A DNA stretch of 64,000 nucleotides from Mobula hypostoma (GCF_963921235.1 NC_086097.1:7874001-7938000), one strand, 5' to 3'; counted from the first letter of the stretch, positions 36,387 through 42,518 are shown. Numbers and translations: made by a program. The notes: a model not told the origin generated them from the letters alone.

Positions 36387-37465
36387 AGTAATTCTCAAGG
36401 TGTTAGCTGATCTCCTGTCTAAGTTACAAAATGCTAGAAAAGTGTTTCCGGTGAAATACATTGTTGTCAGCTGGCTGTAATGCAATCAAGTTAGCCAAGA
36501 ATGCCCTCGTTCATTCGTTATGTGCCATGTTGTAAGGCATAGATGATCATAGTCTTTCCATGACCATGATTGTTCTTCTACTGAAGTGGTTTGTCATTGC
36601 CTTCTTCTGGGAAGTATCTTTACAAGACAGGTGATCCCAGTCATTATCAACACTCTTCAGAAATTGTCTGCCTGGCGTTATTTGGTACTTAACCAAGATT
36701 TGTGATGTGCATCAGTTGCTCATACAACCACCCATCACCTGCTCCCATGGCTTCATGTGACCCTGATCAGGGGCTAGGCAGGTGTTACACCTTGCCCAAG
36801 GGTGACCTGCAGTCTAGCAGAGGGAAGAAGCTCTTTAAACCTCCTTTGGTAGAGATGTTTCTCCACCCCGCCACCCAAGATAGACATAACATCGTTTTTC
36901 AGGAGATAATTGTTTGCCTTGGGTACCAGTACTGCCTGTTGACATATCCCCTTTTTCTTCCTGCTTTCTCATCAAAAATAGTGCTTACGGGCAACTTATC
37001 TCCAGGGATGAAATCTTACCTGTTCAGTTGATCACTCAATGCTAAGCCTGGGGCCTAGGCTACACCTCAGTGCAGCATCTGAACATTCTGTTCCCTCAGT
37101 TTGAATGCTGATAGACTGCTCCATGGTAGTTAGCATAATGTCATTGCAGCTGGGTGTGTCAGAGTTCAGAGTTCATCGTCATCAAAGATCCTCACCACCC
37201 GGGCCATGCTCTTTTCTCGCTGCTGCCTTCAGGTAGAAGGTACAAGAGCTTCAGGATTCCACTACCGGGTTCAGGAACAGTTACTAACCCACAACCATTA
37301 GGCTGTTGAACAAAAGGGGATAAAGGGGGTAAAAACTGAGATGCAAAGAGACTTGGAAGCCCTTGTGCAGGATTCTCTAAAGGTTAATTTGCAGGTTGAG
37401 CCTACCAGCCTTCTCCTTCCCACCCTCCCTCCACCTTCTTTATAGGGCTTCTGCCCTTTCCCTCT

Positions 37466-37505
37466 TCAGTCCTGACGAAGGGTTCCGGCCCGAAACATTG
37501 ACTGA
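37466..37505 (+). ncRNA. Minimal type I hammerhead ribozyme, probably impaired
   Basis: TCAGTC-CTGACGA-A-GGGT(TCCG)GCCC-GAAA-CATT-GACTGA; the palindromic ACGT is mutated to ACAT. Confidence 0.65.
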
Positions 37506-38143
37506 TCGTTTCCACGGATGCTGCCCGACCTGCTGAGTTCCTCCAGCATGTTGTGAGTGATGTTATGTTGAAAGTTTATAAAGCACTGGTGAGGCCTCAC
37601 TGGAGTATTGTGAGAAGTTTTGGGCTCCTTATCTTAGAAAAGGTGTACTGAAACTGGAGAGAGTGCAAAGGAGGATCACGAAAATGATTTCACGATTGAA
37701 TGGCTTGTCATATGAAGAGCACTTGATGGCTCTGGGCCTGTATTAACTGGAATTCAGAAGAATGAGGGGTGACCTCATTGAATGGTGAAAGCCCTTGATA
37801 GAATGATTGTGGAGAGGATGCTTCCTATGGTGGGAGAGTCCAAGACCAGAGGACATAGCCTCAGAATAGAAGGGCCTTCTTTAGAACGAAGGTGAGGAGG
37901 AATTTTTTTAGCCAGACAGTGGCGAATCTGGGGAATTCTTTGCCACCGACAGCTGTGGAGGCCAAGCCTTTATGAATATTTAAGGCAGTTATTAATAGAG
38001 TCTTGACTGGTCAGGGCATGAAGGGATACGGGGAAAAAGCAAGAGATTGAGGTTGAAAGGAAAATTGGATCAGCATGATGAAATGGCAGAGCAGATCAAT
38101 GGGCTAAATGGCCTAATTCTGCTCCTATATCTGTCCTATATCT

Positions 38144-38179
38144 AGTCCTGACGAAGGGTCTCGGCCTGAAACGTCGACT
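38144..38179 (+). ncRNA. Minimal type I hammerhead ribozyme, intact core
   Basis: AGTC-CTGACGA-A-GGGT(CTCG)GCCT-GAAA-CGTC-GACT; predicted cleavage after GUC at 38175. Confidence 0.82.
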
Positions 38180-39394
38180 GCGCCTCTTCCTATAGATGCT
38201 GCTTGGCCTGCTGCGTTCACCAGCAACTTTGATGTGTGTTGCTTGAATTTCCAGCATCTGCAGAATTCCTGTTGTCTGCTCCTATATCTTATGGTTTTAT
38301 GGTCTTATAATTACACTCATTTATTGAGATATTCCTACAACCACCAATCTCACTTTAAGGACTCTTTATCTTGTTATTTCATGCTCTTCGTATTTATTGC
38401 TATTTATTTATATTTGCATTTGCACATTTTGTTTCTTCTGCACGCTATTTGCTCTATTACTGATCCTGTTTACAGCTACTGTTTTATAGATTTGCTGAGA
38501 ATGCTCACAGTAAAAAGTATATTGGGGTTGTATTGTTGAAATATATGTACTATGATAATAAAATTTACTTTGAACTTCGAAATCGATTCTAGCGCTGTCT
38601 GTGAGAAGTTTGTACATCCTTCCTGTGAGTATGTGTTTTTTTCCTGGGAGTTCCAGTTTCCTCCCACATTCCAAAAACGTACCAGTTAGTAGGGTCATTG
38701 TAAATTGTCCTGTGATTAGGCGAGGGTTAAATAGGTGGGTTGCTGGATGGTTTGGCTTGTTGGGCCAGAAGTTTCTGTTCTCCACCGTATCGCTAAGTAA
38801 ATAAATAACGTATGAATTATGATCAATACACAAGCCCTCTCTCTTACCCACTTGGATAAAAGTGCAATACACCTGAGAGACAATTATCTCTCAACAGCCC
38901 TCATAGAACTTAGACCTGTAAGTGTGAGTCGGAGTGGTGGAGGTTGAAATTAAAGACTGGAACCCATAAAACATAAATCAATATTGGTGATGTCAATGCC
39001 CCTGTTAATTAGTGTTTACCTTGAATAATTTATAATTACAGAGCTTCCATGTATAGTTCTATTTTTGTATGCATGGAAGTACGAAAATTCCTTCTCAGTC
39101 TGCATATTTTGCTTGAATGGTAACATATTTTAGCAGCTAATTTTAGCAGGTATTAATAACATCAAAACAAGCCAAGAGAAGGCTTTGTTTTTTTAATGAA
39201 CAATTGTTCACTTGGAATTGATTTTTGACTGTAACAGGGAGACATATGTTAATGTAATAACATTTAGTTCAGCTTGCCACAGATCTAACAAACCACTGTC
39301 CATTTCTTGTTGTTTTCAGAAATTTCAAGCATTGTCATAATGTAAGAGGATACAGAAAATGTATATATTTGTTTACAGATATAGCACAGAATAG

Positions 39395-39655
39395 GCCAGA
39401 ATAAAAAGGGTAGAGGAAGAGAAAGAGGACTAGCTAGAAGGTGATAGGTGAAGCCAGGTGGGTGGGAAAAGTAAAGGGGTGGAGAGGGAGGAATCTGATA
39501 GGAAAGGAGTGTAGACCCGAGGAGAAAAGTAAGAAGGGGACAGGTGAGAAGTGGCAAGAGATCAGAATGGGGAATAGAAGAAGAGGGGAGGGGGAGGGAA
39601 TTTTTTTTTACCAGAAGAAGAAATTGATTTTCATGCCATCAGGTTGGAGACTACT
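39395..39655 (-). mobile_element. Penelope-like pLTR fragment
   Basis: Minus strand SLQPDGMKINF then a pyrimidine-rich tract, as in 23747-24090. Confidence 0.75.
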
Positions 39656-40634
39656 TGAAGCAATGTATTTCTGGCACAACTTCTGCTTGATAATTTGGGA
39701 AGATCAGGGTTCATTCATTTAGTTTGTACAAAAGTCTTGATATTATGTGATTTTATTGCCAGAGTGGTGCGTCTATTGTACAGATTGTATTGACTCTGCA
39801 TGTCCTCAGTTAGATACCATTTCAATTTTTGTTAAGGGTATGCATGAAATCCCATAGAAATGTAGAGCTACAAATTACCCACCTTCCAATATTGTATTTA
39901 TACAAGTCTCTTTAGAGAGGTACTATTAAACTTTGCTTTCATCACCATTTCATACAGGAGATTACAGATTATAAAATGCACCGTGTGAAAATACTTCCCT
40001 GTGTGTTTCTGCTTTCTTTGCCAAAGTCTTTGTTCCTGATTGCCAATCCTTCTGTGACTGAAACCCATATCTTCACTGAAGCTGGAAAACTTTTTACCAA
40101 GCGTAACAGGAGTGATGTGAAGATGATGTTTCCCCGGTTGGGCTGTGAGAACCAAAGCTCACAGTCTCATTATAAGCATTGAGAGGGGAAGAAAGTTCTA
40201 CCCAAGAGGATCAATGGTACATTCAAAACAAAGAAAAATAATTTTAGGTATATCCAGAGTCAAGGAATATGTGGTGTGTGTGGGATGGTGGTACTGGGAT
40301 ATAAGTGGAGCTACGGTTTTATTGTGTGGCAGAGCAGATATGAGGAGCTGACTGACTTCCTCCAGCTTCTATTTCTTGTGTTAAAGTACTTCATGAATTT
40401 TTTAAGAACTCTGTCAAAGCATTCTGTCTGGATACATAATGGCTAGGTATGGGAACCACTGTGCATGCATCTGCAAGAAACTGCAGCTCAGCAAATTATG
40501 GGAAACAGCCTCCCCTCTATAGACTCTGTCTATACTTATTGCTGCCTCAGTAAATCAGCCAGCGTAATCAAATACCCCACCTACCCTGGACAGTCTCCCT
40601 TCTCTCCTTTCCCATCAGACAGAAGAATCAAAAG

Positions 40635-41004
40635 CAGGCATCCCACCCTGCAAAAACTCATTTCAGGGAGGTAGCACCATCGATTTGCGGGAGACTCCTG
40701 GAACTTCCGGGAGAGATGGGATGTTTGCAATAGAGTAGCTCCTGAGCAGCTAGCCAGTAAATTTAAATAACGGTAACTATGCTAATGAACGAACGACACC
40801 TGTTAAACTCACCTCAACATGTCTTTTACAGTCTTAACCCACCATGGGCAATAGAAAAGTCACTGTTGCAAACAGTGCAGCTAGCAACACTGTCATTATT
40901 TTTCACCCCTATTAGGCAGGGGTACTCTTTAGGGTAGTCTGGGGTGACGTACGTTTTATATTTTCTTTTTTTGGAATACTGCCATGGCGCGCTCTCGCTC
41001 TCTT

Positions 41005-41041
<37 letters not shown>

Positions 41042-41085
41042 CTCTCACTCTCTGTCTCTCTCTCGCTCTCTCGCTCTCTCTCTCA

Positions 41086-41131
<46 letters not shown>

Positions 41132-41181
41132 CTCTCGCTCTCTCGCTCTCTCGCTCTCTCTCGCTCTCTCGCTCTCTCTCG

Positions 41182-41212
<31 letters not shown>

Positions 41213-41378
41213 GTGCGCGCGCTCTCTCTCATGGTCGCTCTCGCGCTTTCTCTTGCTTTCTCTCGCTCGCTCTCAAAAAAATTGATTTCCGTGATATTGT
41301 ATATAATTTGCGGGCATCAGGGAGCCACTATTAATATGCGGCAGACTCCCAGAACTTCCAGGAGAGGTGGGATGTCTG
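40635..41378. mobile_element. Non-autonomous TIR transposon (hAT/Blackjack-like) with 6-bp TSD
   Basis: CAGGCATCCCACC...GGTGGGATGTCTG; TSD CAAAAG (40629-40634, 41379-41384). Confidence 0.85.
40988..41273. repeat. Long (CT)n/(CTCG)n microsatellite
   Basis: Read directly; explains the SL-repeat ORFs. Confidence 0.95.
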
Positions 41379-42266
41379 CAAAAGCCTGGAAGTCTGTAAA
41401 GAAGTGCTTCTATCCCACTATTATCAGAGTCAAAAACAAACCCCTTGTACAATAAGATGGACTCTTAACCTCACAATCTAATTATATTTTACACTTTATT
41501 GTTTACCTGTGCTGCACTTTTTCTGTAGGTTTTACACTTTAATCTGCTATTGTTATTATTCTAGCTCAATGCACATAGTAATCATTTGATCTGCATGAAC
41601 AGTTTGCAAGACATTGTGTCTTCTTGTTATCTGTGTCGATAATGTGACAATAGGGTGTCACAAGGCAGCACAGTGGTTAGCGCAATTGCTTTACAGATCA
41701 TCGATTCGGTTACGGTTTCCATCACTGTCTGTAAAGAGTATGCACGTTCTTCCTGTGACCTCGTGGCTTTCCTTAGGATGCTCTTGTCTTCTCCCACATT
41801 CCAAAGATGTATGGGTTAGGGTTGGTGAGTTGCAGGCATGCAATGTGGGCGCTGGAGGTGTGGTGACACCCACAAGCTGCCCCACTCCCAGCACAACCCT
41901 GGGACCGTGTTGAATGTTGATGCCATGTGACAAATTTCACTGTATGTTCTGATGTTTTGATGTACATATGACAAGTAAAACTAACCTTTATCTTTAACAA
42001 ACCAACTTCTCCTTAAAATCCTCAGCCGGAAGATTGACCCAGTATAATGAGAGTGTGGAATGAGCTGCCAGCACATGTGGTGGATGCAGGGTTGAGTTCA
42101 AAATTTAAGAGAAAGTTGGATAGGGAGAGGTATGGTCAGCTATAGGCAAGACAAGTTTATTGCCATTTAACTATATACTTGTATACCGCCAAATGAGACA
42201 GTATTTCTCCGGACCAGCATGAAAAGCACAGTAGTACACATAACACACAGTAACTTAGGAAAGTAA

Positions 42267-42518
42267 GGCTACGTCCACACAGGTCCTGACGAAGGGTCTC
42301 GGCCTGAAACGTCGACTGCGCCTCTTCCTATAGATGCTGCCTGGCCTGCTGCGTTCACCAGCAACTTTGATGTGTGTTGCTTGAATTTCCAGCATCTGCA
42401 GAATTCCTGTTGTCTACGTCCACACTAGACTGGATAATTTTGAAAACGCCGGTTTCACGTAAAAATGAGAGGCGTCCACACCAGGCGTTTTTGAAAATAC
42501 CTCCGTCCACATTAAAAC
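42267..42518 (+). mobile_element. PIF/Harbinger-like MITE left end, interrupted by a hammerhead cassette
   Basis: TAA|GGCTACGTCCACACT terminus with CGTCCACA subterminal repeats. Confidence 0.7.
42282..42317 (+). ncRNA. Minimal type I hammerhead ribozyme, intact core
   Basis: GGTC-CTGACGA-A-GGGT(CTCG)GCCT-GAAA-CGTC-GACT; predicted cleavage after 42313. Confidence 0.82.

What the first reader, a model, noticed from the sequence alone, without database searches (positions are those of the whole stretch)
38133..42425. Recently mobile 131-bp cassette that starts with an intact hammerhead ribozyme
Seen: 38145-38275 and 42283-42413 differ at one base, sit in unrelated hosts (a CR1 tail and a Harbinger-like TIR), and each has its own TSD (TCTGCTCCTATATCT; CTACGTCCACAC). 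Both begin at stem I of a complete hammerhead: CUGACGA, an extra A, a 4-bp stem II with a tetraloop, GAAA, palindromic ACGU and a GUC site. A downstream AGATGCTG/CAGCATCT stem follows. Known: Penelope-like pLTRs carry minimal hammerheads with a palindromic stem III that cleave as dimers. Inference: a non-coding, ribozyme-headed SINE- or retrozyme-like unit mobilised by a Penelope RT, seeding self-cleavage sites through this genome.
Basis: partly seen in the sequence, partly recalled or inferred. Interest (0 to 1): 0.8.

Follow-up and report, generated by a model that had tools for sequence, protein, structure and literature searches.

The report
Truncated Penelope-like retroelement tails with hammerhead
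The two near-identical 131-base insertions are the chopped-off tail ends of a very abundant, protein-coding Penelope-like jumping gene whose tail carries a small hammerhead ribozyme motif, which is a known kind of thing and not a new ribozyme-headed mobile element.

Summary
Window 38145-38275 and 42283-42413 differ at one base. Each has its own perfect target-site duplication and starts at helix I of a complete minimal hammerhead core.

The cassette is not a separate non-coding SINE or retrozyme. [quoted passage not shown] The order is ORF, ~300-nt UTR, hammerhead, then two reverse-transcription start zones ~35 nt apart (the PLE "tail").

The 33-nt hammerhead occurs 39,061 times exactly in the 3.48-Gb genome. 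In an unbiased sample of 100 copies:
- 34 run at least 100 nt upstream into the UTR or ORF.
- 36 of the 66 shorter copies abut an inverted copy.
- 3' ends fall into two classes.
- Short and long copies share subfamily markers.

All of these are published PLE hallmarks.

5' ends are not random: 28 of 66 truncated copies end within 7 nt of the hammerhead's 5' edge, and few end at the ribozyme cleavage site. The same genome also holds a 310-bp tandem array of this module joined at GT/AG boundaries, which is retrozyme-like.

Verdict: a known kind, with modest interest.

The parts
38118..38132 (.). Left target-site duplication of copy 1 (15 nt).
   Evidence: Identical 15-mer at 38275-38289, read.
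38133..38144 (+). 12 extra bases at the 5' junction of copy 1. They partly re-copy the TSD. The last 2 bases may already belong to the element (positions -5 and -4).
   Evidence: Similar filler occurs at other 5' junctions (gap column, e.g. L018, L009).
38145..38275 (+). Copy 1: the 3'-terminal ~130 bp of a Penelope-like element (positions -3 to +127 relative to the C of CTGACGA).
   Evidence: 99% identical to copy 2. 10 of 72 sampled genomic copies are identical to it over 0..+90. It aligns to the 3' pLTR of full-length copies L108-L110.
38144..38179 (+). Minimal type I hammerhead motif. Helix I is 38144-47 with 38176-79. The CTGACGA box is 38148-54. Helix II plus loop is 38156-67. The GAAA box is 38168-71. 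The predicted cut follows C at 38175.
   Evidence: Read directly. The motif scan finds only 3 such motifs in the window. There are 39,061 exact genomic copies of the 33-mer and 0 of the reversed control. Rfam gives no hit.
38243..38275 (+). The PLE 'tail': an optional ~35-nt extension between the two 3'-end zones. In full-length units it is also the start of the long reading frame.
   Evidence: 3' ends of 100 sampled copies are bimodal: +87..+102 (50 copies) and +122..+141 (49 copies). The frame starts in the tail in L108-L110. A two-site initiation model is published (PMC11167929).
38275..38289 (.). Right target-site duplication of copy 1. The T at 38275 is ambiguous between element and TSD.
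42269..42280 (.). Left target-site duplication of copy 2 (12 nt), followed by 2 extra bases at 42281-82.
42283..42413 (+). Copy 2: the same 3'-terminal PLE fragment. Its hammerhead is at 42282-42317, with the predicted cut after 42313.
42414..42425 (.). Right target-site duplication of copy 2.
37405..37556 (+). Older, diverged PLE tail fragment of a related family. It keeps a C/T-rich UTR piece ending in CAG, helix I, and helix II with a G-C closing pair. The ACGT palindrome and GTC site have decayed to ACAT and ATT. Boundaries are approximate.
   Evidence: Families D3 and D5; sequence; motif scan.

Best explanation
Both cassettes are dead-on-arrival, extremely 5'-truncated insertions of a young and very abundant endonuclease-positive Penelope-like element (PLE).

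Shown here:
- The unit is ~3.6 kb. It runs: hammerhead, ~95 nt, tail (which is also the start of the reading frame), a long ORF, a ~300-nt C/T-rich UTR, then hammerhead and tail again.
- The ORF has a DKG motif, a YIDD reverse transcriptase, a CX4CxxC linker and a GIY-YIG endonuclease.
- Copies occur as tandems, as full-length single units, as head-to-head inverted pairs and, mostly, as short tail pieces.

Inferred from published PLE biochemistry:
- The element's protein nicks AT-rich DNA and starts reverse transcription inside the RNA at either of two nearby sites. This gives the two 3'-end classes.
- It copies towards the RNA's 5' end and usually stops early.
- Priming on both DNA strands, or snap-back of the cDNA, gives the inverted pairs.

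The window copies used the outer start site (+127). They ended at -3 and -5, which is the commonest stopping zone.

Why that zone is favoured is not shown. My estimates are:
- About 0.4: a major template RNA begins there. An initiator-like TTCAGT, which also reads as a CAG 3' splice site, sits at -11..-6. RT starting at the 5'-proximal initiation site would then run off that RNA end.
- About 0.35: the folded or protein-bound hammerhead module makes the RT stop or fold back there.
- About 0.25: something else.

The hammerhead is probably a weak ribozyme that depends on a dimer or on protein, and it is not needed for insertion.
For: Upstream continuity:
- In 30 loci holding the exact hammerhead, the sequence before it is conserved. 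Homology runs upstream for variable lengths, from -12 to beyond -950.
- That upstream sequence encodes a GIY-YIG domain and, further up, a YIDD RT.

Protein:
- An 836-aa stop-free translation matches Pfam RVT_1 (E 1.9e-5) and GIY-YIG (E 4.8e-4) in that order.
- It shows DKG, CX4CxxC and two Cys inside GIY..YIG by reading.

Arrangements:
- L110 is a tandem, with hammerheads 3,512 bp apart.
- L109 has an inverted 1.2-kb copy abutting a full copy.
- L108 is a full unit with a 12-nt TSD.

Abundance:
- 39,061 exact hammerhead 33-mers.
- 63,448 exact +57..+87 anchors.
- Only 381 tail-to-ORF junctions.
- 165,900 first-look RT candidates.

Sample of the first 100 anchor places on contig 1:
- 34 extend to -100 or further.
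- 66 are truncated. Of these, 36 abut an inverted copy.
- 3' ends: 50 short, 49 long, and 1 running on into the ORF.
- The same marker types occur in every length class.

Flanks: the 10 nt after the 3' end are 67.6% A+T, against 59.0% for the window. ATT is the commonest first triplet, in 7 of 99.

Literature:
- Minimal hammerheads in PLE pLTRs, the extra base between positions 9 and 10.1, the palindromic 15.2-16.2, opposite-strand pairs 100-700 bp apart, and single motifs as truncated PLEs (PMC4209133, whole text read).
- 5' truncation, inverted 5' copies, the 30-40-bp tail, and Zn-finger linkers (PMC8557442, passages).
- Two internal RT start sites, extension of both strands, and a hammerhead dispensable in vitro (PMC11167929, main text).
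Against: - Both Pfam matches lie below the curated cut-offs (24.9 against 29.6 bits; 20.8 against 22.6 bits). The endonuclease piece alone gave no Pfam hit. No solved relative was found.
- Rfam finds no hammerhead.
- Helix II closes with G.U, not the G10.1-C11.1 pair reported as highly conserved.
- The predicted monomer fold sequesters the core.
- 5' ends are not those of plain random truncation. 28 of 66 fall in a 15-nt zone. Simple early termination does not explain this.
- The sample comes from one 4-Mb stretch of one contig. It was chosen by an exact 31-mer, so it favours young copies.
- No RNA evidence could be had.
Confidence: 0.9

Rival explanations
1. The cassette is an independent non-autonomous, ribozyme-headed retroposon (SINE-like). 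It has its own master copies and uses the PLE enzyme in trans.
For: - There is a sharp excess of copies starting at the hammerhead's 5' edge: 28 of 66 truncated copies, and 12 of 30 simple ones.
- By analogy with the Anolis element, the region from the cut site to the RT start sites is the minimal template (PMC11167929). A cassette RNA could therefore be copied in trans.
- Non-autonomous PLE derivatives are known (PMC8557442; bioRxiv 10.64898/2026.07.22.740005).
Against: - There is a continuum of longer copies into the UTR and ORF: 34 of 100.
- The same marker types (CG/T, TA/G, CA/C) occur in short and long classes.
- Full-length copies carry a 3' end with 1 mismatch to window copy 1.
- There is no tRNA, 7SL or 5S head: Rfam finds nothing in the window.
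- Any promoter upstream of -8 is not carried along.
Confidence: 0.05
2. The copies are monomers shed by a retrozyme, that is, a small circular hammerhead RNA copied by rolling-circle reverse transcription.
For: The genome holds a 310-bp tandem array of at least 4 units at 99% identity. Each unit runs from -6 to +304 of this same module, with a hammerhead in every unit. The array ends at the short RT start site.
Against: - The window copies are single and dispersed.
- They stop at +127, so they lack the +132..+304 part and the +304|-6 junction of that unit.
- Only 381 of the many tens of thousands of cassettes run on past the tail at all.
Confidence: 0.03
3. The two copies arose by segmental duplication or gene conversion within the window, not by insertion.
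For: They are 4,138 bp apart and 130/131 identical.
Against: - The flanks are unrelated.
- Each copy has its own perfect TSD of a different sequence and length.
- Tens of thousands of equally similar copies exist elsewhere.
Confidence: 0.01

Closest known systems
Endonuclease-positive Penelope-like elements with a CX2-5CxxC linker (Neptune/Nematis type), and their insertion products
   Same: - RT with DKG and YIDD motifs.
- C-terminal GIY-YIG with internal Cys pair.
- CX4CxxC linker.
- Tandem and pLTR arrangement.
- Adjacent inverted 5'-truncated copies.
- Heavy 5' truncation.
- Optional ~35-nt tail.
- Hammerhead in the pLTR.
- TSDs of variable length.
   Different: - Clade placement rests on the linker motif alone; no tree was built.
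- Copy number is very high.
- A marked 5'-end hotspot lies at the hammerhead's edge. I did not find this described in the passages I read.
[quoted passage not shown]
   Same: - CUGANGA and GAAA boxes.
- One unpaired base between positions 9 and 10.1.
- Short helix I (4 bp).
- No helix III beyond a palindromic ACGU that could pair in a dimer.
- Mostly found as single motifs in truncated elements, or as opposite-strand pairs.
   Different: - Helix II is only 4 bp and closes with G.U in the young family (G-C in the older copy at 37472).
- Sequence is almost invariant: 39,061 identical 33-mers. The paper stresses variability within a genome.
Poseidon of Anolis carolinensis (PAc), the PLE studied in vitro (PMC11167929)
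   Same: - The hammerhead lies just before or at the start of the reading frame.
- Two adjacent internal RT start sites ~100 nt downstream define the tail.
- AT-rich targets.
- Both-strand extension would explain head-to-head pairs.
   Different: - Different clade (PAc lacks the CxxC linker, according to PMC8557442).
- Here the frame starts in the tail, not in helix II.
- Nothing here was tested biochemically.
Non-LTR retrozymes of animals (tandem hammerhead repeats giving circular RNAs; PMC7229834 listing only; bioRxiv 10.64898/2026.07.22.740005 results read)
   Same: The same hammerhead type. The 310-bp array L111 has the retrozyme layout and derives from a PLE pLTR, as that preprint proposes.
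   Different: The two window copies are solo and untandemised, and they lack the array's junction. They are not retrozymes.

Membership tests
Penelope-like element (EN+) | Reverse transcriptase of PLE type (RT core with YIDD; DKG motif upstream). | tested here: met
   Pfam RVT_1 at residues 327-489 of P0003, E 1.9e-5. The score of 24.9 bits is below the curated 29.6. ADKGG and YIDD are read in the translation. No tree with telomerase or other RTs was made.
Penelope-like element (EN+) | GIY-YIG endonuclease C-terminal to the RT in the same frame, with a CCHH-type Cys pair inside the core. | tested here: met
   Pfam GIY-YIG at 739-814, E 4.8e-4. The score of 20.8 bits is below the curated 22.6. 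VIY-x10-YIG with two Cys between is read. The endonuclease piece alone gave no Pfam hit at E<=0.01.
Penelope-like element (EN+) | Pseudo-LTRs from partial tandems, and inverted 5'-truncated copies at the 5' end. | tested here: met
   L110 is a tandem and L109 has an inverted copy plus a full copy. 36 of 66 truncated sampled copies abut an inverted copy.
Penelope-like element (EN+) | Optional 30-40-bp tail at the insertion end. | tested here: met
   3' ends of 100 copies: 50 at +87..+102, 49 at +122..+141, and 1 running on.
Penelope-like element (EN+) | Hammerhead motif within the pLTR. | tested here: met
   The motif lies ~300 nt after the stop codon and ~85 nt before the next frame, in both repeats of L109 and L110.
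Neptune/Nematis-type PLE | CX2-5CxxC Zn-finger-like linker between RT and EN. | tested here: met
   CKRNKCYTC is read. The criterion is taken from PMC8557442. Phylogenetic placement was not tested.
Minimal hammerhead of PLEs | Invariant core (C3 U4 G5 A6 N7 G8 A9; G12 A13 A14; A15.1-U16.1; H17). | tested here: met
   Read directly at 38148-38175 and 42286-42313.
Minimal hammerhead of PLEs | Conserved G10.1-C11.1 pair. | tested here: not met
   The young family has G.U (GGGT/GCCT). The older copy at 37472 has G-C (GGGT/GCCC).
Minimal hammerhead of PLEs | Unpaired base between positions 9 and 10.1, and palindromic 15.2-16.2. | tested here: met
   The extra A and the ACGT palindrome are read. The features are as listed in PMC4209133.
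Hammerhead ribozyme (any type) | Self-cleavage at H17. | not testable with these tools
   No RNA data were available. The predicted monomer fold pairs GACG with CGUC and so hides the core. Only 4 of 66 main arms plus 1 of 36 inverted arms end at +26..+30.
Hammerhead ribozyme (Rfam families) | Match to an Rfam hammerhead covariance model. | tested here: not met
   0 families at gathering score in the window. No hammerhead at E<=10 in 37400-38350.
SINE | Small-RNA-derived head with an internal pol III promoter, and a lineage of its own. | tested here: not met
   No tRNA, 7SL or 5S match in the window. Short and long copies share markers. The sequence continues into the PLE ORF in 34 of 100 copies.
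Non-LTR retrozyme | Tandem repeats of ~170-400 nt, each with a type I hammerhead. | tested here: not met
   The window copies are single. The feature is met elsewhere in the genome by L111: 310-bp period, 4.0 copies, 99% identity.

The most novel reading that the evidence does not exclude
The hammerhead-headed module may be a discrete RNA unit and not just a truncation product. Three boundaries coincide at about -6:
- the 5'-end hotspot of insertions;
- an initiator-like TTCAGT that also reads as a CAG 3' splice site;
- the unit junction of a 310-bp tandem array, whose other side is a GT 5' splice site inside the ORF.

If a capped or spliced (or back-spliced, circular) RNA starting at -6 is a preferred template of the PLE enzyme, two things follow. 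This vertebrate genome would show directly how PLE pLTRs give rise both to tens of thousands of ribozyme-headed mini-insertions and to retrozyme arrays. It would also show spliceosomal, not ribozyme, processing defining the unit.
Probability: 0.25. Interest if true: 0.6.

Novelty: new member of a known kind. Interest (0 to 1): 0.27.

Why it matters
Taken at face value this is routine. It annotates two repeats as tail fragments of a Penelope-like element, and it warns that hammerhead cores in such genomes are mostly debris of one retroelement family.

Two by-products could be useful:
- The family is young, very uniform and huge (39,061 identical hammerheads). That makes it a good natural data set for PLE insertion mechanics: two RT start zones, head-to-head pairs, and a stopping zone at the hammerhead edge.
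- The GT/AG-bounded 310-bp array offers a concrete, testable route from PLE pLTR to animal retrozyme. A 2026 preprint argues for this link from phylogeny only.

Tried and rejected
- Rfam gave nothing: gathering threshold on the whole window, and E<=10 on 37400-38350.
- A BLAST-type search of the 131-mer in the own genome returned nothing, because very common words are skipped. I replaced it with exact pattern counts.
- Pfam on the endonuclease piece alone gave no family.
- The PDB sequence search gave no relative.
- RNA evidence: no RNA holder is listed among 22 runs.
- The four runs laid are Logan contigs of unknown kind, so they cannot show RNA starts, ends, strand or level. Their table 6, places where many molecules begin or end, was empty.
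- From these contigs I use only one weak hint of the same 5' and 3' boundaries in three coded organisms: contigs break into unrelated sequence just before L110 2810-2813 (-5..-2; 16, 9 and 4 contigs in X1, X7, X21) and just after 2948-2949 (+134).
- I rejected the idea that hammerhead cleavage sets the 5' ends. Only 4 of 66 main arms lie at +26..+30, one of them a clean case with a TSD.
- I considered a lariat branch-point stop. Ends between -32 and -10 are only mildly raised, at 12 of 66.
- I looked for an untemplated G (cap copy) at simple 5' junctions and saw none consistently.
- I wanted a sample of copies that run on into the ORF, to see where more-than-unit copies begin.
- Earlier-scan look-ups by place and by sequence gave nothing.


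Full report
**1. The observation**

The two stretches are real. The repeat finder reports 38145-38277 and 42283-42415 as a direct pair at 99% identity. Reading them shows one difference, T at 38203 against C at 42341. The 31-nt hammerhead string occurs twice in the window, and 0 of 100 shuffles reached two matches.

Each copy has its own perfect target-site duplication (TSD):
- Copy 1: a 15-mer at 38118-38132 and 38275-38289.
- Copy 2: a 12-mer at 42269-42280 and 42414-42425.

In copy 1, 12 extra bases that partly re-copy the TSD lie between the left TSD and the element. In copy 2 there are 2 extra bases.

The hammerhead core is complete by direct reading:
- Helix I (4 bp).
- CTGACGA, then one extra A.
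- A 4-bp helix II with a tetraloop.
- GAAA, palindromic ACGT, then C17.

The predicted cut lies between 38175/38176 and 42313/42314.

Rfam calls nothing, either at gathering score in the window or at E<=10 around copy 1. This fits a motif that has no helix III.

A motif scan finds just three such motifs in the window. The third, at 37472, is an older relative with decayed ACGT and GTC.

**2. What it belongs to**

The exact 33-nt hammerhead occurs 19,501 + 19,560 = 39,061 times in the 3.48-Gb genome. The reversed control occurs 0 times.

In the 30 loci returned, the sequence before the hammerhead is conserved in most copies. Homology runs upstream for variable distances, from about -12 to beyond -950.

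That upstream sequence is coding:
- A linker with CKRNKCYTC.
- A GIY-YIG core with two Cys inside it, and a stop codon about 300 nt before the hammerhead.
- Further upstream, an RT with YIDD.

An 836-residue stop-free translation from one copy matches Pfam RVT_1 (E 1.9e-5) and then GIY-YIG (E 4.8e-4). Both scores are a little below Pfam's curated cut-offs. It also carries the DKG motif. No solved relative exists by sequence.

Searching the genome with the RT piece gave 165,900 first-look candidates. The 99 that were scored all reached E <= 8.4e-240.

**3. The whole unit**

Three long copies show the layout. The unit runs: hammerhead; about 95 nt; a ~35-nt tail in which the long reading frame already begins; the ORF; a ~300-nt C/T-rich UTR; then hammerhead and tail again.

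- L110 is a head-to-tail tandem, with hammerheads 3,512 bp apart.
- L109 is a full copy that starts at -59 and abuts an inverted 1.2-kb copy.
- L108 is a single ~3.6-kb unit that starts near +39 and has a 12-nt TSD.

The 131-bp cassette is therefore the 3' end of an autonomous element, the pLTR part in the terms of the literature. It is not a family of its own.

**4. An unbiased sample of copies**

I chose an anchor downstream of the hammerhead (+57..+87), which has 63,448 exact hits. I took the first 100 places on contig 1 without dropping any. Each was aligned to a tandem reference.

5' ends, relative to the C of CTGACGA:

| Zone | Copies |
|---|---|
| -100 or further upstream | 34 |
| -99..-8 | 19 |
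| -7..+7 | 28 |
| +8..+57 | 19 |

3' ends:

| Zone | Copies |
|---|---|
| +87..+102 | 50 |
| +122..+141 | 49 |
| Runs on into the ORF | 1 |

Of the 66 truncated copies, 36 abut an inverted copy head to head with tails outward. In 26 of these 36, at least one arm ends in -7..+7.

The marker combinations that distinguish subfamilies occur in all length classes. So the short copies are not a lineage of their own.

Only 381 exact tail-to-ORF junctions exist genome-wide. Nearly all copies are therefore tail pieces.

The 10 nt after the 3' end are 67.6% A+T, against 59.0% for the window. ATT is the commonest first triplet, in 7 of 99.

Ten of 72 sampled copies are identical to window copy 1 over 0..+90, and 39 of 72 have at most 3 differences. 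Together with the intact TSDs and CpGs, this supports recent insertion.

**5. Comparison with what is published**

Every structural trait above is a described PLE trait.

- Cervera and de la Pena (PMC4209133, whole text read) found minimal hammerheads in PLE pLTRs. They describe an unpaired base between positions 9 and 10.1, a short helix I and a palindromic 15.2-16.2. Most occurred as single motifs 'probably related to truncated PLEs', or as pairs on opposite strands 100-700 bp apart. Activity in vitro was low.
- Craig et al. (PMC8557442, passages) list heavy 5' truncation, partial tandems, an adjacent inverted 5'-truncated copy and a 30-40-bp tail. They describe the CX2-5CxxC linker of Neptune and Nematis, a TSS in the pLTR, and an intron in the 5' UTR.
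- Frangieh et al. (PMC11167929, main text) showed for the Anolis element that reverse transcription starts at two adjacent internal sites that define the tail. Both DNA strands are cut and extended. AT-rich DNA is preferred. The hammerhead needs protein to cut and is dispensable for insertion in vitro.

By the linker motif the present element is of Neptune/Nematis type. I built no tree.

One departure from the published motif is the G.U closing pair of helix II in the young family. The older copy in the window has G-C.

**6. What the plain picture does not explain**

The 5' ends are not random. 28 of 66 truncated copies fall in a 15-nt zone at the hammerhead's 5' edge (binomial P about 2e-12 against a uniform spread over 157 nt). 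Among copies without an inverted neighbour the figure is 12 of 30 (P about 1e-5). Both window copies (-5/-3 and -3) belong to this class.

TSD-supported ends spread over -7..-3, with no consistent extra G.

Ends at the ribozyme cut site are few: 4 main arms plus 1 inverted arm at +26..+30. One of them is clean, with the TSD directly abutting +28. Ribozyme cleavage therefore does not set the ends of most copies. This agrees with the in vitro work.

Contigs from runs of three coded organisms break into unrelated sequence at -5..-2 and at +134. These runs are of unknown kind, and I treat this as a weak hint only.

**7. A related array elsewhere in the genome**

Among the tail-to-ORF junction hits, three lay 310 bp apart. 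The stretch (L111) is a tandem array with a 310-bp period, 4.0 copies and 99% identity.

- Each unit runs from -6 through the hammerhead and tail to +304 in the ORF, and then joins back to -6.
- In the full element, the base after +304 begins GTATCC.
- The bases before -6 are a pyrimidine run ending in CAG.
- The junction is therefore GT/AG-bounded, as a splice or back-splice would leave it.
- The array ends at the short RT start site.

This is the layout of an animal retrozyme made from a PLE pLTR. A 2026 preprint proposes exactly this link from phylogeny (10.64898/2026.07.22.740005; abstract and results read). The 2014 paper also notes that in Drosophila virilis the intron's 3' end abuts helix I.

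The same hexamer region also reads as an initiator-like TTCAGT. That reading rests on my recalled consensus and comes from no call.

**8. Mechanism and confidence**

Shown:
- The cassettes are tail fragments of an RT/GIY-YIG element.
- 3' ends fall into two classes.
- Head-to-head pairs are common.
- There is a 5'-end hotspot.

Inferred from the literature:
- Target-primed reverse transcription starts at either of two internal sites.
- Both-strand priming or cDNA snap-back gives the inverted pairs. Several junctions join -4 to +26..+32, which are the two strands of helix I.

Open: why ends pile up at about -4. My estimates are:
- About 0.4: a template RNA starts there, and RT starts at the 5'-proximal site of a pLTR-initiated transcript.
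- About 0.35: the RT stops or folds back at the folded or protein-bound module.
- About 0.25: something else.

The monomer's predicted fold hides the catalytic core, and the cassette folds no better than shuffles. This is consistent with a weak, context-dependent ribozyme.

**9. Verdict**

It is a new member of a known kind. Interest is modest. It is raised a little by the hotspot and by the GT/AG-bounded retrozyme-like array, both of which need RNA data to interpret.

Two earlier notes of this scan on other genomes reached the same reading for similar fragments. I used them only as leads.

Limits:
- The sample comes from one 4-Mb stretch and favours young copies.
- The host repeats around the two copies were only read by eye.
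- Supplementary files of the cited papers were not opened.

Noticed in passing
L111 (G000:C2:157816400-157817700), whole locus, minus strand: A tandem array with a 310-bp period, 4.0 units and 99% identity. Each unit runs from -6 to +304 of the PLE module, with a hammerhead in each. The unit junction is bounded by GT (in the full element) and CAG, and the array ends at the short RT start site. This is a retrozyme-like derivative of the same element. A second pair of junction hits 262 bp apart (C2:122542762 and 122543024) was not fetched.
   Followed up: partly
L001-L099 sample; window 38143-38148 and 42283-42288: The 5' ends of truncated copies cluster within 7 nt of the hammerhead's 5' edge (28 of 66). 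In head-to-head pairs one arm usually ends there (26 of 36). Several junctions join -4 to +26..+32, the two strands of helix I, as a cDNA snap-back would.
   Followed up: partly
L108 2895-5699, L109 2892-5696, L110 2900-5704 versus L110 3-2510; L031 650-2130 minus strand: In several long copies the RT frame (935 codons stop to stop) and the GIY-YIG part lie in different frames. In the upstream copy of L110 they are in one frame. The 935-codon class may be over-represented because the query itself carried the shifted end. Whether this is decay or a regular feature was not examined.
   Followed up: no
window 37300-38117 and 38290-38320: A CR1-like LINE 3' region, judged by eye from the reading frame and a TATGGTYT-type microsatellite tail. 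It is interrupted by the older PLE fragment at ~37405-37556 and then hit again by copy 1 near its 3' end. About 20 codons of the LINE seem to be missing at the older insertion.
   Followed up: no
window 40930-41308: A long, imperfect microsatellite-like array with 8-14-nt spacing, rich in CT/TC (family D1). It lies between the two copies.
   Followed up: no
L020 1-624; L002/L003; L017; L024: Head-to-head pairs of the element also occur with long arms. In L020, an RT-containing inverted copy meets a copy truncated at -950, with a 72-nt overlap repeated in inverted orientation.
   Followed up: partly
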